DNA from: a plasmid | Reading direction: 5' to 3' (one strand) | DNA: 44,665 nucleotides | Sequence record: NZ_CP102715.1 | Shown here: piece by piece, positions 14,797 to 39,789 of the stretch | How positions within the stretch are numbered: position 1 is the first letter of the stretch | Layout: each line of letters begins with the position of its first letter | Translations under genes and position numbers: made by a program | The notes under the pieces: generated by a model | The model's database searches: none | What the model was told of the DNA's origin: nothing | Seen by the model: the letters and a program-made list of their open reading frames with translations, nothing else

Positions 14797-15414
14797 ATGA
14801 AGCGTAGCGTGGTTTTAAGTATTGCGATTGGTAGTTTGATCTTAATCATGTCATTAGGGGCGAATGCCTATCAACATAGCCAAGTTAAACAGGCACAACA
14901 GCAGATCAGTCGCTTACAACAGCAGAAGCGACAAGTTAACCAGCAATTGACTAAAGCCAACCAACAAAAGCAGTTATTGAGCACCCAAATTGACAGTTAT
15001 AAGACCTACCAAAATAATAAAGATAAAAGTCCGGCTGAAATTAGCTTCAATACAGTGGTCACAAAGTTCTTTAAGGTCATGAATAACTTTAAGCCCAAGA
15101 CCTACGGCCAGCGTAAAGATGGCGTGAAAGACTTGATTTCCGACAAGCTATATCAGCAATACTTTTCAAATAAGGGCACGTATGGTGACAGCAATAGTGT
15201 TTCAGCCAAATTAGATCAGCTGAACCTGTATACACAAAGTAAGCAGGGCCCAAATATGAAGGGCTTGGCCGTTGTCAGTTACGAAAGTAAGAGTGGCGAC
15301 AACGACTGGCAAAAGGCGACGGTACTTTATCAGGTGACCTTCGATACCACCACGGATCGAATCACCGCAGTCCAAAATTTAGGTAGTAGCTTTAAAGCCA
15401 GTGACCTTAATTAA
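14797..15414 (+). CDS. Secreted/membrane-anchored T4SS protein (TrsH-like, coiled-coil plus NTF2-like C-domain; possibly VirB8-like)
   Basis: N-terminal TM/signal, Q-rich coiled coil. GGAGG RBS. Confidence 0.4.
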   Translation: MKRSVVLSIAIGSLILIMSLGANAYQHSQVKQAQQQISRLQQQKRQVNQQLTKANQQKQLLSTQIDSYKTYQNNKDKSPAEISFNTVVTKFFKVMNNFKPKTYGQRKDGVKDLISDKLYQQYFSNKGTYGDSNSVSAKLDQLNLYTQSKQGPNMKGLAVVSYESKSGDNDWQKATVLYQVTFDTTTDRITAVQNLGSSFKASDLN

Positions 15415-15769
15415 GCGGGTTGGTAAGGCCCTAGCGGTAATCGTGGTGGTTTTAGCCGTTAGCGGGTTTGCTGGTCATCAATACGTCAATCACGTGGAAA
15501 AACAGCGGCCAGTTGTGACGCTGGCTAAGCACCCTGAAAAAGTGTTGTTCTTCTATCGTGATGATTGCCCGGACTGCCAAGCTATTTTTCACCGAATCTA
15601 TTGGCACAACGTCATTAGCCATAACGTTGTTTTTATTAACATGAATCAATCGCAGAATCGGCACTACATTCAGCAATATCAATTAACGTCAGTCCCAACC
15701 TTGATCCATGGCAAGCAACGGTACACCGGCACTAACCAAAAAAGGATTAAACAGATAGTAGGTGATTAG
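15401..15769 (+). CDS. Membrane-anchored thioredoxin-like CxxC protein (thiol:disulfide oxidoreductase)
   Basis: N-terminal TM then FFYRDDCPDCQAIF, a CPDC active-site motif in thioredoxin-fold context. Confidence 0.55.
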   Translation: MTLIKRVGKALAVIVVVLAVSGFAGHQYVNHVEKQRPVVTLAKHPEKVLFFYRDDCPDCQAIFHRIYWHNVISHNVVFINMNQSQNRHYIQQYQLTSVPTLIHGKQRYTGTNQKRIKQIVGD

Positions 15770-16240
15770 ATGAAAGACAAATTATTAAACAGCATTAAAG
15801 CTAGTTGGCCGTATTTACTAACACTAATCATTGGCTTGTATTTAGCGGAGATTTTAGCTGGCGCTGTCATGGCCTTGTCCCGTTATAAGCTAACCTTTGC
15901 GGATCATATGCCAACCGTATTAAAACAATTAGCTTTACACCCTTGGCACTATTACAACTTGTATTTGGGCCAAAAGAACCCAGTACTAATTATTGTCAGT
16001 GTCGCCGTGGTCCTATACACCATCTATTTTGCCTTGAAACGAAATAGCAAACATAAATCGTGGGAAACTGCGGACACTGAAACCCACGGAAGTGCGACCT
16101 GGGGCAATCTAAAAGAATTGAGCGACCATTACTTTAGTATCACTGCTAAAGACCTCACCACAGCGTTTAACAGGAGCACTACAACAGAAATATTAGAGGC
16201 ATTAACAAAACAAGAAACACAATCCAAGACAGACAAGTGA
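15770..16240 (+). CDS. N-terminal membrane domain of the type IV coupling protein, encoded separately
   Basis: Two TM helices followed by ETHGSATWGNLKEL, the HGSArW motif that follows the TM region in VirD4/TraG-family T4CPs. Confidence 0.5.
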   Translation: MKDKLLNSIKASWPYLLTLIIGLYLAEILAGAVMALSRYKLTFADHMPTVLKQLALHPWHYYNLYLGQKNPVLIIVSVAVVLYTIYFALKRNSKHKSWETADTETHGSATWGNLKELSDHYFSITAKDLTTAFNRSTTTEILEALTKQETQSKTDK

Positions 16241-16255
16241 AAGGAAGTAAGAAGC

Positions 16256-16426
16256 ATGAACAGACCAGATTTATTAGTACGAATAGTTACGATCATCACG
16301 TCGTTAATTGCGATAGTTTTGTTTCTATTTCAGGGTTGGAACACACCTACTTTTGTATTTACAGTTATCACAGTCATTTTATCTTTCATTTATCAGTTAA
16401 TCAGAATACAGATGAAAAAGAAGTAA
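16256..16426 (+). CDS. Small (56-aa) two-TM hydrophobic peptide in the gap between the T4CP halves
   Basis: ATG 16256 with AAGGAAG RBS. Peptide MNRPDLLVRIVTIITSLIAIVLFLFQGWNTPTFVFTVITVILSFIYQLIRIQMKKK. Not in the track (<60 aa). Confidence 0.3.
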   Translation: MNRPDLLVRIVTIITSLIAIVLFLFQGWNTPTFVFTVITVILSFIYQLIRIQMKKK

Positions 16427-16469
16427 ATCAGAAAAGTCATCTAAAGCTAACCACATTGGAGGTAAACGC

Positions 16470-18020
16470 ATGAATGGGACAATTTTAGGGATCGTGGATA
16501 AACGGATTGTTTACCAGAATAATAGCACCAAACCAAATCGGAATATCTTTGTGGTTGGGGGCCCAGGATCGTATAAGACCCAATCAGTCGTGATTACCAA
16601 CCTGTTTAATGAAACGGAGAACAGTATTGTCGTAACCGACCCGAAAGGTGAATTATACGAAAAGACGGCCGGTATCAAACTAGCCCAGGGTTATCAAGTG
16701 CATGTCGTCAACTTTGCCAACATGGCGCATAGTGATCGCTACAATCCTTTTGATTATATTCAACGGGATATTCAAGCTGAAACCGTGGCAACAAAGATCG
16801 TGCAAAGTGAAAATGCCGAAGGTAAAAAAGACGTGTGGTTCAGTACCCAACGCCAACTTTTGAAGGCACTAATCCTGTTTGTCATGAACCACCGGTCACC
16901 AGAACAACGAAATTTGGCGGGTGTGACCCAAGTGTTGCAAGAAAACGATGTGGAAGCCGAGGAAAAGGGTGCGGATAGTCCGCTAGATACCTTGTTTCTT
17001 GATCTAACTATGACTGATCCAGCAAGACGCGCTTATGAGTTAGGGTTCAAAAAGTCCAAGGGGGAAATGAAAGCCAGCATTATTGAAAGCCTGTTGGCGA
17101 CCATTTCGAAGTTCGTCGATCAAGAAGTGGCTGATTTTACCAGCTTTTCAGACTTTGATTTAAAAGATATTGGCAAAGCCAAAGTTGTGCTATATGTGAT
17201 TATTCCGGTGATGGATAATACCTACGAAAGCTTCATCAATCTGTTTTTCTCACAATTATTTGATGAATTATACAAATTAGCCGCCGATCATCACGCTAAA
17301 TTGCCCCACCAAGTCGACTTTATCCTTGATGAATTTGTCAATTTAGGGAAGTTTCCCAAGTACGAAGAATTTCTAGCAACGTGCCGGGGGTACGGTATTG
17401 GCGTGACGACCATTTGTCAGACCTTAACCCAGCTACAAGCCTTGTATGGCAAGGAAAAGGCTGAGAGTATCTTAGGTAATCATGCGGTTAAAATTTGCTT
17501 GAATGCCGCTAATGATGTGACCGCTAAATACTTTAGTGATCTGTTAGGAAAATCAACCGTGAAAGTGGAAACTGGTAGTGAGAGTACCAGTCATAGCAAG
17601 GAAGAAAGCCATAGTAAGAGCGATAGTTACAGCTATACGAGCCGTTCGCTGATGACACCTGATGAAATCATGCGTATGCCTGAAGATCAGAGCTTATTAA
17701 TCTTTAGTAATGCCCGACCAGTCAAAGCGATAAAAGCGTTCCAATTTAAACTATTTCCAGGAGCCGATCATTTGGTTAACTTGTCACAAAACGATTATCA
17801 AGGCCAACCAGAAGCCAGTCAAGAAACCAACTTTAAGAAAAAAGTAGAAAAATGGAAAGCAAAATTAAAGGAGACTGCTCAAAAAGAAGCCGCAAACGAG
17901 ATGTCTCAAACAGATGAGGAGCAACAACAGGACAACCTAGATAGCGACTTAGAGAGAGTTTCAAATAAAGATAGTCAAACAGAGGCGCCAGAAGAAGACG
18001 ACAACAACTTATTTGGATAA
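16470..18020 (+). CDS. VirD4/TraG-family type IV coupling protein, ATPase domain (TrsK-like)
   Basis: GTILGIVDK..NIFVVGGPGSYKTQSVV Walker A. Walker B VDFILDEFVNLG. GGAGG RBS. Confidence 0.85.
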   Translation: MNGTILGIVDKRIVYQNNSTKPNRNIFVVGGPGSYKTQSVVITNLFNETENSIVVTDPKGELYEKTAGIKLAQGYQVHVVNFANMAHSDRYNPFDYIQRDIQAETVATKIVQSENAEGKKDVWFSTQRQLLKALILFVMNHRSPEQRNLAGVTQVLQENDVEAEEKGADSPLDTLFLDLTMTDPARRAYELGFKKSKGEMKASIIESLLATISKFVDQEVADFTSFSDFDLKDIGKAKVVLYVIIPVMDNTYESFINLFFSQLFDELYKLAADHHAKLPHQVDFILDEFVNLGKFPKYEEFLATCRGYGIGVTTICQTLTQLQALYGKEKAESILGNHAVKICLNAANDVTAKYFSDLLGKSTVKVETGSESTSHSKEESHSKSDSYSYTSRSLMTPDEIMRMPEDQSLLIFSNARPVKAIKAFQFKLFPGADHLVNLSQNDYQGQPEASQETNFKKKVEKWKAKLKETAQKEAANEMSQTDEEQQQDNLDSDLERVSNKDSQTEAPEEDDNNLFG

Positions 18021-18424
18021 TGGAGGGCATATTAATGAAAAAATATCGCAAATATATAATCGCCGTGATGACAGTGTTACTGATTGCTGTTGGTCTAACC
18101 GCTTGTGGGAAGTCGACAGCACAAGATTTGCAAAGTCACCAGTGGACGTTTGCTTCTAGCAAAGATAATGGTATGGCCGCTACTGCAAAGTTTTCGAAAA
18201 GCAACTTAACACTTACCCAAGCGGGCTTTAGCGAAGTTTATACTTACAAGTTGATTGAAAACAAGGGCAATGAACAAATTAAGTTCATTGGTAAGAACAG
18301 TGTTTCAGGTGGTGCAGAAACACGACTATTTAAGATTAAAAAGCAGTCAGACAAATATAAACTAACACCAATTAACACACTAGCTAAAAGTGATACTGGT
18401 ACGGTCACACTCATTCCCAAATAG
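18020..18424 (+). CDS. Lipoprotein of the T4SS cluster
   Basis: Signal peptide with lipobox LTAC (MKKYRKYIIAVMTVLLIAVGLTACGKS). Confidence 0.6.
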   Translation: MEGILMKKYRKYIIAVMTVLLIAVGLTACGKSTAQDLQSHQWTFASSKDNGMAATAKFSKSNLTLTQAGFSEVYTYKLIENKGNEQIKFIGKNSVSGGAETRLFKIKKQSDKYKLTPINTLAKSDTGTVTLIPK

Positions 18425-32681: not shown

Positions 32682-34046
32682 TTAAATGTTTTTGGAATAT
32701 AAAAAATTTATTAAAATGTCAGCAATGACAATGATGACTACTACGAATAAAGCCAAATACCAATTTACTTGAATCCCGAGGAAGAGATTAGGGGAGGTTA
32801 AATTAATCAAGGTTGATCCTATAGCTGTACCACTTGCAATGGCAATGTTTTGCACCATTCGTTGTAGTGAACCGATTGTACCTTGGCTGTTAGCGGAACC
32901 TGATTGCATGATATTGCCAATATTAGCTGGCTGAAAATAACCTCCACCGACACCAAATAGGAACAGGCAACTAGTTACAACAATTGGCGGCCATTGAACA
33001 CCAACTAAAAGCAAACCAGCAAAGGCTAGTGCAATAACCACGAGACCCCAACGGCTAAACTTCTGATTTTTGGAACCGCCATTTTGACTACCAGAAACCC
33101 GTGAGAAAATGACTAATCCAACCGGTGCACCTAGGACTAATAGTCCCGTTACTCCAACGTCAATATGCATAACCTTTTCGAAAAGAAAGGGCGGAATTAA
33201 AAAGACAATTGCCGATGCAAACCCAAAGACTGCGGTTTGTAGCAGATATAGCCAGATCTTGGGGGCTTTAGAAAGAGTTCGGAAGTCTACTAGAGGCTCA
33301 TTTAGTCTAAATTCAAATGTATAGAAGCATACCCCTAAAACTAATCCACAAATAATTAGTGGAACAGCCAGCTTGAAACTAGTTGCCTTACTGAGAAGCG
33401 AAAAACCAGCCAATAAACAAATAATCATTGTGGCATTAATAATGCTACCCGATAAATCAAATCTTTGCTTCGCAGTATTTTCATGAATTTGGTGAATCAA
33501 TAAGTAATTACAAATCAATCCTAATATTGCGAAAGGCACATTGATCCAGAAAATTAATCGCCATACATTTAAAGCTAAAAAGAAACCGCCAATTGTTGGT
33601 CCTAGAATAGGACCCAAGCCAATCATGATTCCTAGTACCCCCAGAGCCTTGGAGACACGGTCGTGATCCATAAGCGTGGTGATTAGAGCAGCTGATGTTG
33701 CTTGTAAAGCAGCTGCGCCAATCCCTTGAATAATCCGAAAGATAATCAGACCCGAAATATTAGTCGCTAACCCACATAAAATCGATCCGAAACCAAATAT
33801 TAGTAATCCGATCAAAGAAACTTTGAGCTTACCAATTTGATCGCTTAGATAACCGAAGGGCAAAATCAACACTGCTAAGCTAGTTGTATAGCCAACTACA
33901 CTTAGAGCAGCAATACTGGTAGTCGAGTGAAACTGATGCTGCAAAAAAGGTAACGCAACATTAATAATTCCAGTATCTAATGTCGAAAGTAACATTCCCA
34001 TGCCAGCAATAAGAATGATTAAGTGATTCTTAGTTTGCTTAGTCAT
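32682..34046 (-). CDS. MFS transporter, DHA2 (14-TMS drug:H+ antiporter) family
   Basis: 14 predicted TM. N-terminal LLSTLDTGIINVALPFL. Motif A region GYLSDQIGK. Confidence 0.8.
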   Translation of the reverse strand: MTKQTKNHLIILIAGMGMLLSTLDTGIINVALPFLQHQFHSTTSIAALSVVGYTTSLAVLILPFGYLSDQIGKLKVSLIGLLIFGFGSILCGLATNISGLIIFRIIQGIGAAALQATSAALITTLMDHDRVSKALGVLGIMIGLGPILGPTIGGFFLALNVWRLIFWINVPFAILGLICNYLLIHQIHENTAKQRFDLSGSIINATMIICLLAGFSLLSKATSFKLAVPLIICGLVLGVCFYTFEFRLNEPLVDFRTLSKAPKIWLYLLQTAVFGFASAIVFLIPPFLFEKVMHIDVGVTGLLVLGAPVGLVIFSRVSGSQNGGSKNQKFSRWGLVVIALAFAGLLLVGVQWPPIVVTSCLFLFGVGGGYFQPANIGNIMQSGSANSQGTIGSLQRMVQNIAIASGTAIGSTLINLTSPNLFLGIQVNWYLALFVVVIIVIADILINFLYSKNI

Positions 34047-34171
34047 TATACATACACCTACTATCATTAATCATAAAAAGGACCTCCCTTGAATTACTGT
34101 AATTTCATGATAGAATTGTTTTTAAGTACAATCAAACGATTCTACAATTTTGAAATTGAAAGGCAACATTT

Positions 34172-35272
34172 ATGACTATTAAAATTAAGTTCGGCAACTA
34201 TGCCTGTCAAACCAATGAAACCCTTACTCAACGAATTCAGTTTGTATATTCTCCGCTAAATGAATTGTTTAGAAGCCTACATGTGCTATTGAACCCCCGT
34301 CACCATGGTATGAACATCGATTGGGCACTGGAAGCACAACGATCCTTAACCGACGATTTTTTTAATCAACTCCACTATTTTGAATTAATTTATGAATTAG
34401 GAACGCCGCCAATATTTTTTAATAACTTTGAACAGCTAACCGCGAACTTAGATGATGAAATCGACAATTTAAAACAATTTTTATCTCACGAGGATCCACA
34501 AGTTGTCGTCAAAAGCTTGGTACAGGTTGCTCAGCAGCGCGAAAATCAATTTATTCCTAAAATGGCTAAAAGCTTGGAGTGGCGAGATTATCAACCAACT
34601 AATCCACACCAACTCTTAAAAGACTTGCGCGTTAATCCTGCCAAGGTTTATGAGCAGCTATTTGCATTTATTGCAGATTATCGAAACCGAGTTTTTGATC
34701 AAACTTGGGTAGACCGTTCTCTTAGCCAATTTCTGGTTAATGAAATTAAAGATCAGTCAAAATATTTACGAGATAATGGCTTTGTCAAGCTTGTTAATCA
34801 TCTGGAGGTTGATCGATTGCATTGGCAACAAGATCAACTAATCGTCACTAAACCATTTGACCAGCAAATTGATTTAGGAAACCACGATGTCATTTTATTG
34901 GTACCAAGTTATTTTGTTTGGCCGCATCTTTTTGTTGATCGTTTTGCCGGCGGAGTAACCATTACTTATGATGCTCTTAATAAAATAAAAACTAAGGTGA
35001 ATCCAGATGAGTTAGTCAGTGTATTTAAGGCTTTAAGTGATCCGGTTCGATTGCGAATGCTGAAGTATTTAGCTGATGAACCCCTAACAACTCAATCATT
35101 AGGTCAGATTATGACCATGAGTGCATCAACGGTGTCCCATCATTTAAAGCTTCTAAAACAAGCTAGGTTAGTCAAAACTCAAAAGGACCGTAAATTTGTA
35201 TTGTACTCCCCGACCAGCTTAATTGCCGATCTCATTCCCGGGTTCTATTCATATTTAAATCAAGAAAATTAA
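34172..35272 (+). CDS. ArsR-family transcriptional regulator with large N-terminal domain of unknown function
   Basis: C-terminal FKALSDPVRLRMLKYLADEPLTTQSLGQIMTMSASTVSHHLKLLKQARLV is the ArsR/SmtB HTH. Confidence 0.55.
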   Translation: MTIKIKFGNYACQTNETLTQRIQFVYSPLNELFRSLHVLLNPRHHGMNIDWALEAQRSLTDDFFNQLHYFELIYELGTPPIFFNNFEQLTANLDDEIDNLKQFLSHEDPQVVVKSLVQVAQQRENQFIPKMAKSLEWRDYQPTNPHQLLKDLRVNPAKVYEQLFAFIADYRNRVFDQTWVDRSLSQFLVNEIKDQSKYLRDNGFVKLVNHLEVDRLHWQQDQLIVTKPFDQQIDLGNHDVILLVPSYFVWPHLFVDRFAGGVTITYDALNKIKTKVNPDELVSVFKALSDPVRLRMLKYLADEPLTTQSLGQIMTMSASTVSHHLKLLKQARLVKTQKDRKFVLYSPTSLIADLIPGFYSYLNQEN

Positions 35273-35292
35273 TTTAAAGGAGGATTTTAAAC

Positions 35293-35919
35293 ATGTTAAC
35301 TGAAAAAATACTATCAACATTGAGTTGCCAGAGATTTTTGACTCTCAATGAGATTTGCAAAGCGACTAATATTGACCATCTGATTGGCCAACAACAGCTA
35401 AAAAAATTAGAGAAGGATCGATTAATAGAGCGACGTTTCTTCGCCGGCAGAAGTTACTTCAAATTAACTGACGTAACCAAACCGACATCTGATCTGGGGA
35501 AAAAAACGTGGGATAAGCTGTCTCAGCGGAAATTAGCTATTCAAATTGGTCAGGCCAGAACTTGTTATCATCATTTAGCTGGACAGGCGGGGGTGCAACT
35601 ATTCCAATGGTTAAACCAAAACCACTTAGTTGAGAAACTATCTTTGGATCACTATGTTTTAACTGCTCAAGGGAAACGTCAATTTAGTCATTTTCTAGTG
35701 GAATCAGTCCAACAAACGCGTTTGCAGACGTGTATTGATTTTTCGGAACGCCTACCCCACTTATCGGGAGCGTTGGGAACCAGACTACTATCGCAATTGG
35801 TTAAAAACGATGTGGTTGCATTAACTAGTAAGCGTCAGATAAGAATTAATATTCCTTTGGCACGTTGGTTTAAGGAGGATTTTCTTGAAGACAAATCTAA
35901 CCAGATGTTCATGGGCTAA
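35293..35919 (+). CDS. Winged-helix DNA-binding protein (hypothetical)
   Basis: AAAGGAGG RBS. N-terminal wHTH-like LTLNEICKATNIDHLIGQQQLKKLEKDRLIERR. Confidence 0.35.
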   Translation: MLTEKILSTLSCQRFLTLNEICKATNIDHLIGQQQLKKLEKDRLIERRFFAGRSYFKLTDVTKPTSDLGKKTWDKLSQRKLAIQIGQARTCYHHLAGQAGVQLFQWLNQNHLVEKLSLDHYVLTAQGKRQFSHFLVESVQQTRLQTCIDFSERLPHLSGALGTRLLSQLVKNDVVALTSKRQIRINIPLARWFKEDFLEDKSNQMFMG

Positions 35920-36469
35920 TACGGATAATGCTCTTCTAAGAGACTATCACGATCATGAGTGGGGTCGGCCCTGCCATAATAACCGAATGCTATTCGAACT
36001 ATTGTCTTTAGAAATTATGCAAGCCGGATTAAGTTGGCAGACGGTGCTCAATAAGCGGCAGGCTTTGAAGGCTGCATTTGAAAATTTTGATTATCGAACA
36101 GTTCAAATGCTAGACTCCCAACTCCCCCAATTGTTGACTAATGACAAGATTATTCGAAACCGACGGAAAATCTTAGCAATTATTTCTAATGCAAGGATTA
36201 TTGATTCACTCGAAACTCAAAATAAATCATTCAATCAGTACCTCTGGGACTTCATCAAGTGGACACCAATTCAACATCATTATCAATCACATAAAGATCT
36301 ACCCAGGACCGATCAAACTGCTAGGCGAATTAGTAAGCAAATGAAGTCAGACGGTTTTAAGTTTACGGGTCCGGTCGTTATATATTCTTTTATGCAAGCT
36401 GCTGGGCTGGTCAACGATCACGAAATTTCCTGTTACCGCTATAAGGAAATTACCCAAACGCACGAATAA
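35885..36469 (+). CDS. tag: DNA-3-methyladenine glycosylase I (Tag)
   Basis: RCSWANTDNALLRDYHDHEWGRP..LFELLSLEIMQAGLSWQTVLNKRQ..IIRNRRKILAIISNAR..GPVVIYSFMQAAGLVNDHEISCYRY matches Tag throughout, including the Zn-ligand Cys/His. TTG start with AAGGAGG RBS. Confidence 0.8.
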   Translation: MKTNLTRCSWANTDNALLRDYHDHEWGRPCHNNRMLFELLSLEIMQAGLSWQTVLNKRQALKAAFENFDYRTVQMLDSQLPQLLTNDKIIRNRRKILAIISNARIIDSLETQNKSFNQYLWDFIKWTPIQHHYQSHKDLPRTDQTARRISKQMKSDGFKFTGPVVIYSFMQAAGLVNDHEISCYRYKEITQTHE

Positions 36470-36473
36470 TAAC

Positions 36474-36640
36474 TGCCCTGGCTAAACAACAAGGCAAATA
36501 TCATGGTCGGAAGCCTCAATATGCCAAAGATGATCCCCGGTTGCAACATGCTTTTAAACTTTATCAGGCGGGCATGAGTGATGTAGATGTGGCTCGTAAT
36601 ACCGGGATTAAGCGGACGACCTTTATCATGATGGGAATTA
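36474..36640 (+). pseudogene. Resolvase 3' fragment
   Basis: LAKQQGKYHGRKPQYAKDDPRLQHAFKLYQAGMSDVDVARNTGIKRTTFI.. This matches 32007-32612 residues ~135-190, then diverges or is deleted. Confidence 0.6.
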
Positions 36641-36730
36641 AGTTAGAGTGATATCATTTATTAATCAGAATGCAAACAACTGTGCTTCTTACCATGGTTT
36701 TTTAGGAATAGCGGTTTTACTAATTGTTGA
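36631..36730. repeat. ~100-bp direct repeat (copy 1), also found at 39790-39889
   Basis: atgatgggaatYaWgttagagtgRtatcatttattaatYRgaatgcaaacaactgtgcttcttaccatRgttttttaggaatagcggttttactaattg is shared. It is downstream of a resolvase fragment in both copies. Confidence 0.8.
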
Positions 36731-36815
36731 AATTAAAATGATACTGATAAAGTAAAAAAGAGCTAAGAAACCACCTAAAAAAGGTACCTCATATCCCCGA
36801 GGTACCTTTTTAAAT

Positions 36816-38576
36816 TCAACTTTTTAATGACTTACGATCTGTCAACAAAGCAATCGGCGACAGAATCAATACAATCACCGCGCCTACTAAGTGGGTATGA
36901 CTGAAGGCCTGGCTGATTTGTTGATTCTTAGTATGCTTAATTTTTCTCAAAGCTGTCGTTAAAGCTTCTTTTTGTGCCAATTGTTTGAGACCTACTAACA
37001 ATTTTTTCTGACCTTGGCTTATTTTCTGAAGTTGCTGGTTACCCGCCTTTAAGTTGTCAGTAGCTAGTGCTAACTTCTTCTGGGCTTGGTAGACCTGGTA
37101 AAGATCGGTTCCCTTTTGGGGCTGTGGTAAATCAACTTGAGATTTGGCCGCTTGTTTAAGGGCACGTCTTAGGTTCGTCTGTTTGTTTTTAGTTATTAAT
37201 TTGGCTGATCCAGTAGTGGAAAATAGGCTGTTCAATTGTTGATGAGCCACTTTCTTTACTTTGGGTGATAATTGCTGTCGATCAACAATTTGAATGGCAT
37301 CTTGATGAATATGCTGCTTAGCTGTATTGACATTATTATCAAGGACTGTTACTAGAATTGCAATTCCTAAACAAGTGCCAATTTGACGCGCTGCGTTAAC
37401 AATTCCCGAACCAATCCCACTTTTATTTTTTGGCAAATGCTTAACCGAGGCCACTAACGAAACCGAAGAGAACCCAAAACCAACACCATGAATCACCAGG
37501 AAAGTAATGATAACAGCTTTAGGCGTTGTGGTGGTGATAAACGACAAGAGGAGTAAACTAGCTGCCATGACTAAGAGGCCAATCAAAGTAACCAGAACTG
37601 CGCCAACTTGATCAAATAACTTAGTTCCCAAAGGCATCGCTACCATGATTGTTAAGGAAACTGGAACAATAATTAGGGCCGCATGTAACGCTGTATCGTT
37701 CAGAACGTCTTGTAAAAAATAATTTAAAATCAGGGTGGGACTAACTAACGCAAAGCCAGTTAAAAAGTAAACTAAACTAGAAGCAGTTAAGGTTTTTTCA
37801 CGGAACAAATCTAATTCAAGTAGTGGGTGTTTGACTTTGCTTTCGATAAAGATGAACAATCCAATAACTAATACGCCGCCAATGAGGGTTCCTAAGATGA
37901 TGCCCGATTGCCAACCATATTGGCGGCCTTCTAGTAGGCCAAAGGTTAAACCACCCAAGCCTAGTGTTAAAAGAATCGTTCCTGGTAAATCAATTCTCCC
38001 CGCCAAAGATTCGTCATATGATTCCCTCACCCCCATAGCCATAATTAGAAAGGCTGCAATGGTTAAGGGGACATTAATGCCGAATACCCAGCGCCAGGAA
38101 GCATATTTAATAATCACGCCACCAATCGGTGGCCCCCCGGCAGCGGCTAAAGCCGTTACCGCGCCCACAACGCTAGCAATTTTGGACATATGCGCTTTGC
38201 CAAATATTTCAATTCCCATTGGTAAGACAATCGGGGTGATAATGGCACCGCCTAATCCTTGAAAAAATCGAAAAGCAATCAATTCTGGTAACGACGTTGC
38301 CAGCATACAAGCCGCTGAAAAGCCGCCAAATAAGGCTAATCCTAATAACATAATTTTTTTACGACCATAACGATCAGCAATCTTTGAACCCGTGATCATA
38401 AACACGGCTAAGGCTAACGTATAGATGGTGGCAACCCAACTCGTATCAGTTAGACTAGCATCGAAATGGGTCATAATTTGGGGTAAAGCAATGTTGACGA
38501 TGGTACTGTCTAAGGTACCCATAAACATCGCAATGGTTAACCCGATGAAACTGATAATTTTAGTAGCTTTTGACAT
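36816..38576 (-). CDS. MFS transporter, DHA2/EmrB-QacA family, with ~150-aa hydrophilic insertion/extension
   Basis: N-terminal MFMGTLDSTIVNIALPQI. 14 TM. Long coiled-coil-like hydrophilic segment before the last TM. Confidence 0.8.
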   Translation of the reverse strand: MSKATKIISFIGLTIAMFMGTLDSTIVNIALPQIMTHFDASLTDTSWVATIYTLALAVFMITGSKIADRYGRKKIMLLGLALFGGFSAACMLATSLPELIAFRFFQGLGGAIITPIVLPMGIEIFGKAHMSKIASVVGAVTALAAAGGPPIGGVIIKYASWRWVFGINVPLTIAAFLIMAMGVRESYDESLAGRIDLPGTILLTLGLGGLTFGLLEGRQYGWQSGIILGTLIGGVLVIGLFIFIESKVKHPLLELDLFREKTLTASSLVYFLTGFALVSPTLILNYFLQDVLNDTALHAALIIVPVSLTIMVAMPLGTKLFDQVGAVLVTLIGLLVMAASLLLLSFITTTTPKAVIITFLVIHGVGFGFSSVSLVASVKHLPKNKSGIGSGIVNAARQIGTCLGIAILVTVLDNNVNTAKQHIHQDAIQIVDRQQLSPKVKKVAHQQLNSLFSTTGSAKLITKNKQTNLRRALKQAAKSQVDLPQPQKGTDLYQVYQAQKKLALATDNLKAGNQQLQKISQGQKKLLVGLKQLAQKEALTTALRKIKHTKNQQISQAFSHTHLVGAVIVLILSPIALLTDRKSLKS

Positions 38577-38589
38577 CTATCAAGCGCTC

Positions 38590-38740
38590 CTTTCGGTAAC
38601 AGATGAATATAAAGGAAACATTTGTTACCTTTATTTGCAGTCTTTAGTATAATTAGCCCTAAGCATTAAAACAATCCTTATTGGCTAAGTGCTACAGATT
38701 GCTATAATTTGTTACCGATAGTAGAGGAGATGTTAATAAA
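38590..38740. promoter_or_regulatory. Divergent promoter/operator region between MFS and tetR, with TTTGTTACC repeats
   Basis: Palindrome GGTAACAGATG..CATTTGTTACC and a third copy AATTTGTTACCG. TATAAT-like boxes on both strands. Confidence 0.35.
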
Positions 38741-39325
38741 ATGAACGGCAAGCAGCGTATGGTTGAACAGTCTAAGCAATGGTTATGTGACGCCCTTATA
38801 AATTTAATGACGAAAGAGAACTTTCAGGATATTTCGATTACTGAAATTGCCCAAACCGCTGAATTATCGCGAAAAACATTCTATCATTCTTTTAAAAATA
38901 AAGAAGCGGTCATTAATTACCTGTGTGATCAGTTGTTCGATCAGTACTTTGAACAATTACTCCAGCAGAAACCGCAGGTAGGGGAACCGATGTTAAAAAC
39001 TACTTTTGATATTTTTTTTAATTTTTGGTGGCGAAAACGGGATTTAATTCAATTATTGATCCGCCAAGGCTTATTTGATCACGTGAATGAAATTTGGCAG
39101 CAAAAAGCAATCCCTCGTTATCAACAATTTGCAGCTCCCTGGCATGTTCATGGTACTCCTACCCAAGTGAATTATGTGATGGCTTTGCAAATAGGTGGTT
39201 TAACTAATATTCTACGTGTCTGGTTAGGACAAGATCAGCCTGAGCCACCAGAACAAATTAAGGATCTAATGTTGTTGGCTGCTCAGCAATTAGCCGATAG
39301 TTTAAATACAAATCAGATTAGTTAG
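38741..39325 (+). CDS. TetR/AcrR-family transcriptional repressor
   Basis: N-terminal HTH FQDISITEIAQTAELSRKTFYHSFKNKE. Divergent from the efflux gene. Confidence 0.8.
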   Translation: MNGKQRMVEQSKQWLCDALINLMTKENFQDISITEIAQTAELSRKTFYHSFKNKEAVINYLCDQLFDQYFEQLLQQKPQVGEPMLKTTFDIFFNFWWRKRDLIQLLIRQGLFDHVNEIWQQKAIPRYQQFAAPWHVHGTPTQVNYVMALQIGGLTNILRVWLGQDQPEPPEQIKDLMLLAAQQLADSLNTNQIS

Positions 39326-39714
39326 ACAGAAACAATCAGGATTTAACTAAGATTATGAACACCATTCAAAATAAGGGTGCCACCCTAGATGTGTTGAATT
39401 TACCGTCCATGACAGGGATTGCTGACCCTAACTTGCGTCAACTGATGACCAACTTGATTATTGAACTCTATAAGTATCAGGCCGAAAGTGAACGTAAGCG
39501 AATTATTGAGCGCCAGCAGCAAGGGATTGCCTTAGCTAAGCGACAGGGTAAATATCATGGACGCAAACCCCAATACACCCAAGACGATCCCCACTTGCAA
39601 CATGCTTTTAAGCTCTATCAAGGTGGTATGAGTGATGTCGATGTTGCCCGTAATACCGGCATTAAACGGACGACCTTTATCAGGTATCGCAAAAAGTTTA
39701 ATATAAAAAGATGA
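39325..39714 (+). pseudogene. Resolvase gene lacking the 5' catalytic region
   Basis: Homology to 32007-32612 begins mid-gene (..RNNQDLTKIMNTIQNKGATLDVLNL..) with no catalytic Ser region. Ends QGGMSDVDVARNTGIKRTTFIRYRKKFNIKR*. Confidence 0.65.
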
Positions 39715-39789
39715 GACTTATATGTCAGTGACGTGTACCCCCAAAATTAAAAACCGTTTTTTATAAGCAGCAAAACTATTTTGAGAAAA

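What the first reader, a model, noticed from the sequence alone, without database searches (positions are those of the whole stretch)
15770..18020. Type IV coupling protein encoded in two pieces with a small two-TM ORF in the gap
The 156-aa ORF contains the two N-terminal TM helices and the HGSATW motif that in VirD4/TraG-family proteins directly precedes the NTPase domain. The Walker-A-containing ATPase ORF starts 230 bp later at MNGTILGIVDK..VVGGPGSYKT. The gap contains a well-formed 56-aa double-TM ORF (16256-16426, AAGGAAG RBS). Either the T4CP is naturally split here, with the membrane anchor as a separate subunit as proposed for some Gram-positive systems, or a small gene/element has inserted into it. 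The latter would predict a transfer-deficient plasmid unless the halves reassociate.
Basis: partly seen in the sequence, partly recalled or inferred. Interest (0 to 1): 0.55.

Follow-up and report, generated by a model that had tools for sequence, protein, structure and literature searches.

The report
Split coupling protein hosting orphan bacteriocin-immunity gene
The conjugation motor protein of this Lactobacillaceae plasmid is normally made as two separate proteins (a known arrangement), and the small gene between them is an optional add-on related to peptides that protect bacteria from circular bacteriocins.

Summary
A (15770-16240, 156 aa, two TM helices, HGSATW) and C (16470-18020, 516 aa, VirD4-type ATPase without a TM helix) are the two halves of a naturally split type IV coupling protein. 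All but one of 52 species-representative loci and about 175-227 plasmids keep them as two ORFs. One Weissella locus encodes them fused (695 aa). A is homologous to the small gene before the staphylococcal T4CP (trsJ position). This is the known pIP501 TraI/TraJ-type arrangement, not a disruption.

The 56-aa gap ORF B (16256-16426) is not part of that system. It is present in only 21 of 175 related plasmids and absent from outgroups, whose A and C genes overlap (ATGA). It lies in a hypervariable cassette (about 16165-16469) that recombines between backbones. Its only detectable relatives are small circular-bacteriocin immunity peptides: PlcI (56% identity) and GaaI (34%; hhalign 95%). The window has no bacteriocin, PlcD or ABC transporter gene.

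B is therefore best read as an orphan immunity gene carried in the tra operon. Homology is solid; the immunity function is inferred. Purifying selection on B is modest (dN/dS about 0.4).

The parts
15770..16240 (+). Gene A: 156-aa two-TM membrane-anchor half of the split type IV coupling protein (TrsJ/TraI-type), with the invariant HGSATWG motif at nt 16085-16105
   Evidence: ORF. Hydropathy. Family alignment with invariant ADT.THGSATWG. hhalign to the S. aureus pV605 small protein upstream of its T4CP: 95.3%, E 2e-8. Colinear with the NCBIfam TraG model PRK13880 when artificially fused to C. Colinear with the N-terminus of the fused Weissella T4CP. dN/dS 0.10.
16165..16469 (+). Hypervariable junction cassette: the last ~23 codons of A, its TGA stop, B and both spacers. 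This is the segment that differs between plasmid lineages.
   Evidence: Sliding identity between the window and short-form loci falls from >=0.9 to ~0.5 after ~16160 and returns to ~1.0 exactly at C's ATG. Other lineages carry nothing here (ATGA overlap or TAA-C-ATG) or an unrelated 129/136-aa ORF.
16241..16247 (+). Shine-Dalgarno-like AAGGAAG for B, 8 nt before its ATG
   Evidence: Read from the sequence. Retained with minor variants in the long-form loci.
16256..16426 (+). Gene B: 56-aa, two-TM, cationic (pI 11.1) peptide; an orphan homolog of the circular-bacteriocin immunity peptides PlcI/GaaI
   Evidence: BLASTP to PlcI of pB21AG01: 56% identity, 74% positives, ungapped, E 3e-18. To GaaI: 34%, E 9e-6; hhalign 95%, E 3.7e-8. 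A profile search of 5.8e9 proteins returns only B orthologs and PlcI-type 'immunity protein'. Intact in 19/19 loci with 15 alleles. dN/dS ~0.40.
16458..16462 (+). GGAGG ribosome-binding site for C within the 43-nt B-C spacer
   Evidence: Read from the sequence. GGAGG or GGGGG in the long-form loci examined.
16470..18020 (+). Gene C: 516-aa TM-less VirD4-type T4CP ATPase (CD1115 family), Walker A at nt 16557-16580
   Evidence: PF02534 3.9e-138, PF12696 1.5e-39, PF10412 5.3e-32. NF045973 459 bits vs cutoff 250, model positions 2-439 of 442. No TM. dN/dS 0.024. PDB hit Cag5/Cag-beta in the nucleotide-binding domain only.

Best explanation
Two separate things are superimposed here.

(i) The coupling protein of this Lactobacillaceae MOBQ/MPF_T conjugative plasmid family is made as two polypeptides. 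A is a 156-aa two-TM membrane protein carrying the conserved cytoplasmic HGSATWG motif and a variable tail. C is a soluble VirD4-type ATPase. A is inferred to tether C to the membrane and the T4SS, as proposed for TraI/TraJ of pIP501. Ancestrally the two genes overlap (ATGA) or sit 1 nt apart, which suggests translational coupling.

(ii) In a minority of these plasmids, this window included, the A/C junction carries a 229-bp cassette encoding B, a 56-aa cationic two-TM peptide of the GaaI/PlcI family of circular-bacteriocin immunity peptides. The cassette supplies its own ribosome-binding sites for B and for C. There is no terminator between the genes, so B is probably co-transcribed with the tra operon.

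B is inferred to insert in the membrane and give the plasmid's host at least partial protection against gassericin A/plantaricyclin-type circular bacteriocins. This would be 'immune mimicry' by an orphan immunity gene, since none of the production genes are present. The cassette spreads among related backbones by homologous recombination through the conserved A core and the start of C.

Shown: the gene layout, the homologies, the distribution, the polarity of the insertion and the recombination. Inferred: the A-C interaction, expression of B, and its immunity function and specificity.
For: Split is family-wide:
- Long and short forms both have two ORFs.
- Survey of 52 informative loci: about 39 with TAA-C-ATG, about 8 outgroups (Leuconostoc, Lactococcus, Apilactobacillus, some Companilactobacillus/Levilactobacillus) with ATGA overlap, 4 with B, 1 with a different insert, 1 fused.
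- The exhaustive A-profile search found only 52-218-aa proteins.
- A-like small genes lie next to a VirD4-like gene on 227 plasmids, including Enterococcus, Lactococcus and S. aureus.
- A is homologous to the staphylococcal small protein.
- The fused Weissella protein shows that A plus C equals one T4CP.
- The literature recognises TMD-less T4CPs with small membrane partners (PMC7434980, PMC13037476).

B is optional and derived:
- Present in 21 of 175 plasmids, once each, and absent in outgroups.
- B-carrying loci are polyphyletic, with some <1% diverged in A or C from B-less loci.
- B's synonymous divergence is lower than that of its flanks (dS 0.15 vs 0.41 and 0.50; Fisher p = 0.003).

B belongs to the immunity-peptide family:
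- Homology.
- PlcI is a 54-aa two-TM immunity protein, and plcD plus plcI are needed for full immunity (PMC7452424, PMC7423119).
- Immunity proteins of circular bacteriocins are 'small, cationic and hydrophobic' (PMC6131525). B has pI 11.1 and GRAVY 1.05.

Orphan status: tblastn of PlcA, PlcD, PlcT and PlcE against the window finds nothing, and the cargo annotation shows no bacteriocin genes.

Ecological plausibility:
- The gassericin A producer plasmid pLgLA39 has the same conjugation backbone.
- Orphan immunity ('immune mimicry') is an established resistance route (PMC7912925, PMC10598978).

Some constraint on B: intact in 19/19 loci, dN<dS (p = 0.03), and more conserved than the adjacent spacer (p = 0.002).
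Against: - No experiment links B to immunity.
- At 56% identity to PlcI, the specificity could differ.
- The PlcD partner reported as needed for full immunity is absent.
- Constraint on B is weak. dN/dS is about 0.4, and variable sites are spread almost evenly over codon positions (12/11/15). Preservation of the ORF is not significant under neutrality (P = 0.12).
- The database-wide tblastn E-value for B vs PlcI was only 0.04, although pairwise and profile statistics are strong.
- B is unannotated in all 21 PLSDB gene tables.
- No evidence of expression was available.
- The A-C physical interaction is inferred by analogy only.
Confidence: 0.6

Rival explanations
1. B is an evolutionarily decaying or neutral hitchhiker. 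It would be a former immunity gene captured once at a permissive intergenic site and carried along by recombination, with no current function.
For: dN/dS about 0.4 with near-equal variation at the three codon positions. ORF preservation is not significant versus neutrality (P = 0.12). B is present in only about 12% of related plasmids. The PlcD/ABC partners are absent.
Against: 19/19 copies are intact, with 15 alleles and no indel. The ribosome-binding site is retained. The ORF is significantly more conserved than the adjacent 43-nt spacer, and dN<dS in the deepest comparison. The residues shared with PlcI/GaaI (LVR..TII, FQG, ITVILSF.YQLI) are the conserved ones.
Confidence: 0.17
2. B has been co-opted as a membrane accessory of the coupling protein or T4SS. 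It might pack its two helices against A's two helices, or act in entry exclusion, so that it modulates conjugation rather than bacteriocin sensitivity.
For: B sits exactly between the two T4CP halves, inside the tra operon, without its own promoter or terminator. It is co-inherited with a particular variant of A's C-terminal tail. It is in frame with A in all copies.
Against: It is absent from about 88% of close relatives typed as conjugative and from all outgroups. It has no homolog in any other T4SS context. Its only relatives are bacteriocin immunity peptides. An unrelated soluble 129-aa ORF occupies the same site in other plasmids, which argues for a cargo slot rather than a functional partner position.
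Confidence: 0.12
3. B is a small membrane toxin or addiction module (type I toxin-antitoxin-like, or holin-like) that stabilises the plasmid.
For: It is small, very hydrophobic and cationic. There are weak sub-threshold Pfam matches to Holin_9 and Cpta_toxin (E 0.1-0.2). A 56-aa antisense ORF overlaps its 5' end (16129-16299).
Against: The matches are far below cutoffs. There is no Rfam antisense RNA or other RNA family. Promoter-like sites are not enriched. The clear homology is to immunity peptides that are expressed harmlessly in producers. Two TM helices are atypical for type I toxins (own knowledge).
Confidence: 0.04
4. One reading: a once-intact T4CP gene was split by insertion of B, leaving a crippled or transfer-deficient plasmid. 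A related variant is that TGA read-through fuses A and B into a 218-aa four-TM anchor.
For: B is in frame with A behind a TGA stop. 218-aa 'proteins' exist in databases.
Against: Plasmids without B are split at the same place. The 218-aa entries are TGA-to-W gene-calling artefacts, because the DNA has TGA. A and C are under strong purifying selection in B-carrying plasmids.
Confidence: 0.03

Closest known systems
TMD-less T4CP plus separate small membrane partner: TraJ/TraI of pIP501 and the trsJ-trsK-position pair of staphylococcal pSK41/pGO1-type plasmids
   Same: A soluble VirD4-type ATPase is encoded immediately after a ~150-aa two-TM protein, with gene overlap or near-abutment. A is homologous to the S. 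aureus pV605 small protein, including the HGSA motif. The literature calls TraI the putative membrane anchor of TraJ (PMC7434980, PMC13037476).
   Different: Identity to the staphylococcal protein is only about 27%. Direct comparison with pIP501 TraI itself was not run. In this window the two genes are separated by an extra gene, which has not, to my knowledge, been described for pIP501 or pSK41.
PlcI (plantaricyclin A / plantacyclin B21AG) and GaaI (gassericin A) small immunity peptides of subgroup-ii circular bacteriocins
   Same: Same length class (53-56 aa), two TM helices, cationic. Clear sequence homology: 56% to PlcI and 34% to GaaI, with shared LVR..TII / F.F / T.T / FIYQ positions.
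   Different: B is not in a bacteriocin cluster. There is no precursor, no DUF95/SpoIIM (PlcD/GaaD) gene and no ABC transporter in the window. B lies inside a conjugation operon. It carries a more basic C-terminus (QMKKK). Its function is untested.
Orphan bacteriocin immunity genes / 'immune mimicry' (lacticin 3147 LtnI homologs, class II immunity orphans, orphan Mr10EFGH ABC transporters for circular enterocins)
   Same: An immunity homolog is carried without the cognate bacteriocin genes, on mobile DNA, and is more widespread than the producer cluster. In PLSDB, B is on 21 plasmids; a plcI-type ORF was found on 2 and PlcD-containing plc or gaa clusters on 5.
   Different: Orphans described for circular bacteriocins in the papers read are ABC transporters (PMC10598978). 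Here it is the small dedicated peptide, embedded between the halves of a split T4CP.
Single-polypeptide VirD4/TraG T4CPs (e.g. the NCBIfam TraG/VirD4 models; the Weissella confusa FS54 ortholog, L072:2974-5061)
   Same: A plus C are colinear with a full-length T4CP: TM1, TM2, the HGSA motif, a linker, Walker A, then the TraG-D_C domain.
   Different: Here the polypeptide chain is broken about 30-45 residues after HGSATW and about 29 residues before Walker A.

Membership tests
VirD4-type T4CP, NCBIfam NF045973 'conju_CD1115' (gene C) | Score above the curated cutoff across the full model, with the Pfam T4SS-DNA_transf and TraG-D_C domains and a Walker A motif | tested here: met
   459.2 bits vs cutoff 250, model positions 2-439 of 442. 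PF02534 3.9e-138 and PF12696 1.5e-39. GGPGSYKT at residues 30-37.
TMD-less T4CP with separate membrane anchor (TraJ/TraI, TrsK/TrsJ type) | The ATPase polypeptide lacks any transmembrane segment | tested here: met
   Maximum 19-residue Kyte-Doolittle hydropathy over all 516 residues is 1.08.
TMD-less T4CP with separate membrane anchor (TraJ/TraI, TrsK/TrsJ type) | A small membrane protein is encoded immediately upstream, and this is conserved across relatives | tested here: met
   A has two TM segments. A two-ORF layout is seen in 51/52 loci, and annotated plasmids show A as a small gene separate from the VirD4-like gene. All 50 A-profile hits are <=218 aa.
TMD-less T4CP with separate membrane anchor (TraJ/TraI, TrsK/TrsJ type) | Sequence homology of the anchor to a recognised member's anchor | tested here: met
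   hhalign of the A family vs the S. aureus pV605 154-aa protein (the trsJ position, between topoisomerase III and the T4CP): 95.3%, E 2.1e-8, 123 columns. pIP501 TraI itself was not compared.
TMD-less T4CP with separate membrane anchor (TraJ/TraI, TrsK/TrsJ type) | Physical interaction of the anchor with the ATPase, and requirement of both for transfer | not testable with these tools
   Needs a two-hybrid or pull-down assay and deletion/conjugation assays.
GaaI/PlcI-type circular-bacteriocin immunity peptide (gene B) | Small (~50-60 aa), hydrophobic, cationic, two TM helices | tested here: met
   56 aa, GRAVY 1.05, pI 11.1, K+R 6 vs D+E 1, two hydrophobic segments. Descriptions in PMC6131525 and PMC7423119.
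GaaI/PlcI-type circular-bacteriocin immunity peptide (gene B) | Sequence homology to characterised members | tested here: met
   PlcI (pB21AG01 ORF-C): 56% identity, E 3e-18 pairwise. GaaI (pLgLA39): 34%, E 9e-6; hhalign 95.0%, E 3.7e-8. The profile search retrieves only PlcI-type proteins besides B orthologs. There is no Pfam or NCBIfam model for this family.
GaaI/PlcI-type circular-bacteriocin immunity peptide (gene B) | Located in a circular-bacteriocin cluster (precursor, DUF95/SpoIIM protein, ABC transporter) | tested here: not met
   No PlcA, PlcD, PlcT or PlcE homolog in the window. The neighbours are tra genes. B is therefore called an orphan homolog, not a cluster member.
GaaI/PlcI-type circular-bacteriocin immunity peptide (gene B) | Confers protection against the cognate bacteriocin | not testable with these tools
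   Requires heterologous expression and bacteriocin sensitivity assays.
Type I toxin-antitoxin / small membrane toxin | Antisense or adjacent regulatory RNA, own promoter, toxicity | tested here: inconclusive
   No Rfam match. Promoter-like sites are not above the shuffled expectation. Toxicity cannot be tested here.

The most novel reading that the evidence does not exclude
The A/C junction of this widespread Lactobacillaceae conjugation operon is a dedicated, recombination-exchangeable cargo slot. Plasmids would use it to carry small fitness genes, such as an orphan GaaI/PlcI-type immunity peptide here and an unrelated 129/136-aa protein elsewhere. These genes would be expressed from the transfer operon, so plasmid acquisition would immunise the recipient against circular bacteriocins made by sibling plasmids of the same backbone family (for example pLgLA39). 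That would couple conjugation to bacteriocin warfare.
Probability: 0.3. Interest if true: 0.6.

Novelty: new member of a known kind. Interest (0 to 1): 0.4.

Why it matters
The split T4CP itself is ordinary. Its value here is a clean comparative data set: the break point, a natural fused ortholog, the conserved HGSATWG motif and a fast-evolving linker tail. That could guide experiments on how TMD-less coupling proteins are anchored.

The more useful result concerns the unannotated 56-aa ORF. It is a homolog of dedicated circular-bacteriocin immunity peptides and sits on conjugative plasmids that lack the bacteriocin genes.

If it is functional, it is a transmissible resistance determinant against gassericin A/plantaricyclin-type bacteriocins, which are being promoted as food preservatives and probiotic traits. 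In the plasmid database it is about ten times more frequent than plcI itself (21 plasmids against 2). It also illustrates that small cargo genes can hide inside 'backbone' operons and escape annotation.

Tried and rejected
- **Family scans of B.** Pfam and NCBIfam gave only sub-threshold noise (UbiA, Holin_9, TrbI_Ftype and others). PlcI itself also has no model.
- **218-aa database proteins.** They looked like natural A-B fusions but are TGA-to-W gene-calling artefacts.
- **DNA similarity between the B cassette and the plc cluster.** It is confined to 72 nt inside the ORF (71%). No flank homology was found, so no recent transfer event could be traced.
- **Weak tblastn hits of PlcI/PlcA near window 39571-39779 (minus strand).** There is no ORF there, so they were treated as spurious.
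- **Mobile-element model for the 229-bp segment.** It occurs once per plasmid and always at this locus. Repeats at the cassette ends were not specifically searched.
- **Promoter/terminator scan and Rfam scan of the gap.** Neither found anything above background.
- **PDB sequence search with the fused Weissella T4CP.** Only the nucleotide-binding domain of Cag5 matched, which says nothing about the N-terminal motif.
- **Pfam on an artificial A+C fusion.** This did not extend PF02534 over HGSATW. Only the NCBIfam TraG model PRK13880 gave a colinear alignment (+10 bits).
- **Neutral-evolution test of ORF preservation in B.** Not significant (P = 0.12).
- **The 129/136-aa alternative cargo ORF.** No Pfam or NCBIfam match.
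- **Kawai et al. 2009 on GaaI.** The paper could not be read. It is cited only through its title in the reference list of PMC7423119.
Full report
**Observation.** The window holds three consecutive same-strand ORFs exactly as described.
- A is 15770-16240 (156 aa).
- B is 16256-16426 (56 aa), preceded by AAGGAAG.
- C is 16470-18020 (516 aa).

A has two hydrophobic helices and the HGSATW motif. C is a full VirD4-type ATPase: PF02534 at 3.9e-138, TraG-D_C, TrwB_AAD_bind, and NCBIfam conju_CD1115 at 459 bits against a cutoff of 250. C has no TM segment anywhere. The CD1115 model (442 positions) starts at C's own N-terminus, which was a first hint that the family is defined without a membrane domain.

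**Is the T4CP really in two pieces, and is that unusual?** A megablast of 15400-18400 found 175 Lactobacillaceae plasmids, 170 of them typed conjugative; the relatives fetched were typed MOBQ/MPF_T. Annotated relatives fall into two forms.
- A long form like the window, with 229 nt between A and C.
- A short form in which A's TAA stop is followed by a single C and then C's ATG.

Both forms have two ORFs in different frames.

A scan of one genome per species gave 53 loci, of which 52 were informative:

| Junction | Loci |
|---|---|
| 1-nt spacer (TAA-C-ATG) | about 39 |
| 4-nt ATGA overlap, A = 152-157 aa (more distant relatives: Leuconostoc, Lactococcus, Apilactobacillus, some Companilactobacillus/Levilactobacillus) | about 8 |
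| B insert | 4 |
| Different 401-nt insert | 1 |
| A and C fused in one 695-aa ORF (Weissella confusa FS54) | 1 |

In the fused Weissella protein, HGSATWG is followed about 25 residues later by NGTILGIV...GGPGSYKT.

An exhaustive HMMER search of 1.84 billion representative proteins with an A-family profile returned 50 hits, all 52-218 aa. The 218-aa entries are artefacts. Their 'W' is the TGA stop of A read with the wrong genetic code, joined to the in-frame B.

A-like small genes next to a VirD4-like gene occur on 227 plasmids, including Enterococcus, Lactococcus, Leuconostoc and S. aureus. In S. aureus pV605 the order is topoisomerase III, a 154-aa protein, then a 548-aa T4CP overlapping it by 4 nt. 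I recognise this from my own knowledge as the trsI-trsJ-trsK arrangement of pSK41/pGO1. hhalign links the A family to that protein at 95.3% probability, E = 2e-8, with HGSA aligned.

Fusing A to C in silico gives a single colinear alignment to the NCBIfam TraG model PRK13880 (residues 39-561 to model positions 49-563), worth 10 more bits than C alone.

The literature lists 'T4CP lacking TMD' that work with small membrane proteins as a recognised subfamily, with TraJ/TraI of pIP501 as the type (PMC7434980). It calls TraI the putative membrane anchor of TraJ (PMC13037476).

So the split is real, ancient and already known in kind. Both halves are under strong purifying selection in B-carrying plasmids (dN/dS 0.10 for A and 0.024 for C). 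Nothing suggests a defective system.

**What is the gap ORF?** The 229-bp segment is present in only 21 of the 175 plasmids. It occurs once per plasmid, and in every locus fetched (19) it lies at this site. It is unannotated in every PLSDB gene table.

Outgroups lack it, so it is a derived insertion.

Nucleotide-level comparison shows that the difference between forms is a cassette. It starts about 70 nt before A's stop, after the conserved ...AFN codons at about 16165, and ends exactly at C's ATG (16470). The cassette therefore includes a lineage-specific version of A's C-terminal tail, the TGA stop, a ribosome-binding site, B, and a 43-nt spacer with a GGAGG site for C.

Other lineages carry an unrelated soluble 129-aa ORF in the same slot (L059). 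That ORF is on five PLSDB plasmids at 96-100% identity, and a sixth carries a 45%-identical 136-aa homolog at the same junction (L074). The junction therefore behaves as a cargo slot.

B-carrying loci are polyphyletic in both A and C trees. For example, L010 and L021 (with B) are 0.4-1.2% from L033 and L034 (without B) in C. L011 (with B) is 0.9% from L037 and L038. L010's A core is identical to that of the B-less L024 and L027.

B's synonymous divergence (0.15) is about a third of that of A (0.41) and C (0.50). The difference is significant in the deepest pair (p = 0.003). The cassette is therefore exchanged between backbones by recombination, or lost repeatedly. It does not mark one clade.

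**Homology of B.** Protein searches find only B orthologs. However, tblastn against all plasmids gave two weak extra hits (56% identity, E = 0.04; 48%, E = 0.6) in L. plantarum plasmids pB21AG01 and NZ_CP150085. Both fall on a 54-aa ORF between the SpoIIM/DUF95 gene and the ABC-transporter ATPase of the plantacyclin B21AG and plantaricyclin A clusters.

That ORF is PlcI / ORF-C. The published work describes it as the 54-aa, two-TM immunity protein, with plcD and plcI both needed for full immunity (PMC7452424, PMC7423119).

- Pairwise BLASTP of B against it gives 56% identity and 74% positives, ungapped over 50 residues, E = 3e-18 with composition adjustment.
- A profile of B plus PlcI searched against 5.8 billion proteins retrieves only B orthologs and PlcI-type proteins. 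NCBI names one of these 'immunity protein (plasmid)'.
- GaaI, the 53-aa peptide of the gassericin A cluster, was read from pLgLA39. It matches B at 34% identity (E = 9e-6) and the B/PlcI profile at 95% probability (E = 3.7e-8).
- PlcI against GaaI gives 38%, as published.

B is small, very hydrophobic and cationic (pI 11.1). This fits the general description of circular-bacteriocin immunity proteins (PMC6131525).

The window contains no homolog of the precursor, PlcD, PlcT or PlcE. Its accessory region encodes MFS efflux pumps, regulators, a glycosylase and a resolvase. B is therefore an orphan.

pLgLA39, which makes gassericin A, has the same conjugation backbone in its short form. Producers and orphan carriers thus belong to one plasmid family.

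**How strongly is B maintained?**
- All 19 copies examined are intact (56 aa, ATG, TAA, no indel), with 15 DNA alleles.
- dN/dS is about 0.40, and variable sites are spread nearly evenly over codon positions.
- In the deepest comparison dN<dS (p = 0.03), and the ORF is more conserved than the neighbouring spacer (p = 0.002).
- Absence of stop codons alone is not significant under neutrality (P = 0.12).
- Variation concentrates in the inter-helix loop (residues 27-31) and in a few TM positions.

I read this as moderate constraint, compatible with a functional small membrane peptide but not proof of one.

**Expression signals.** No terminator-like site separates A, B and C on the + strand. Promoter-like matches are below the shuffled expectation. 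No Rfam family matches. B is most simply co-transcribed with the tra operon and translated from its own Shine-Dalgarno sequence. The ancestral tight coupling of A and C (overlap or 1-nt spacer) is replaced by an independent ribosome-binding site for C.

**Conclusion.** The reported 'split T4CP' is a correct observation of a normal and already recognised architecture. The gap ORF is an optional cassette gene, homologous to GaaI/PlcI immunity peptides. It is most likely an orphan bacteriocin-immunity determinant ('immune mimicry', PMC7912925; compare the orphan ABC immunity transporters for circular enterocins, PMC10598978). My literature searches found no prior description of such an orphan gaaI/plcI-type gene or of this location. 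This is absence of evidence in the held library only. The function remains to be tested.

Noticed in passing
L072:2974-5061 (Weissella confusa FS54, JACSZT010000023.1): A natural single-polypeptide (695-aa) ortholog in which the A-like N-terminus is fused to the C-like ATPase through a shortened tail. It is the only fused form among 52 loci. It could be a secondary fusion, the ancestral state, or an assembly error.
   Followed up: partly
L059:3483-3872 (Loigolactobacillus backii) and L074:1980-2390 (L. plantarum BK-021 plasmid): An unrelated soluble 129/136-aa ORF family (45% identity between the two) occupies the same A/C junction. It is found on 6 PLSDB plasmids and has no Pfam or NCBIfam match. 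Function unknown.
   Followed up: partly
Database proteins P0002, P0003, P0007, P0011, P0024 and others (218 aa); P0031 (167 aa): Many metagenome/Logan/ENA gene calls read A's TGA stop as Trp, apparently by using genetic code 4 on low-GC contigs. This creates spurious A-B fusion proteins. The DNA (L005:3001-3660) has TGA.
   Followed up: yes
L075 (pLgLA39, NC_011839.1) and one search hit H17: The gassericin A producer plasmid of L. gasseri LA39 carries the same conjugation backbone (short-form A-C junction) as this window. Circular-bacteriocin clusters and the orphan immunity gene therefore circulate on one plasmid family.
   Followed up: partly
window 16256-16426 and its orthologs in 21 PLSDB records: B is missing from every PLSDB gene table. 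Locus-tag numbering skips one tag between A and C in several RefSeq records, so it may be annotated there. One source names it 'CHASE2 domain-containing sensor protein', which is clearly spurious for a 56-aa peptide.
   Followed up: no
window 15401-15769 (+): A 122-aa thioredoxin-family gene with an N-terminal hydrophobic segment ends at 15769, directly abutting A's start at 15770. It is conserved at this position in the relatives fetched, including the Weissella locus. Its role in this T4SS is unclear.
   Followed up: no
window 17800-18020 (C-terminal tail of C): The acidic, low-complexity C-terminal tail of C varies in length between plasmids (C = 489-517 aa), while the ATPase core is nearly invariant.
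   Followed up: no
P0059 (169 aa, NCBI genome contig of 61.5 kb): A fragment in which a 1-nt deletion near the short-form junction joins A's tail to C in frame (…KSSKGQINMNGTILG…). The gene also carries other frameshifts and truncations. It is probably a pseudogene or a sequencing error.
   Followed up: no
window 16129-16299 (-): A 56-aa antisense ORF overlaps the end of A and the start of B. Its conservation and expression were not examined.
   Followed up: no
window 32682-39325: The accessory region carries two DHA2-type MFS efflux transporters (32682-34067 and 36816-38576, both minus strand), a protein with an ArsR/SdpR-type domain, a Tag DNA glycosylase, a TetR regulator and a serine recombinase. 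Annotation of a related plasmid mentions a 'lantibiotic protection ABC transporter', but that match was not located in the window.
   Followed up: partly
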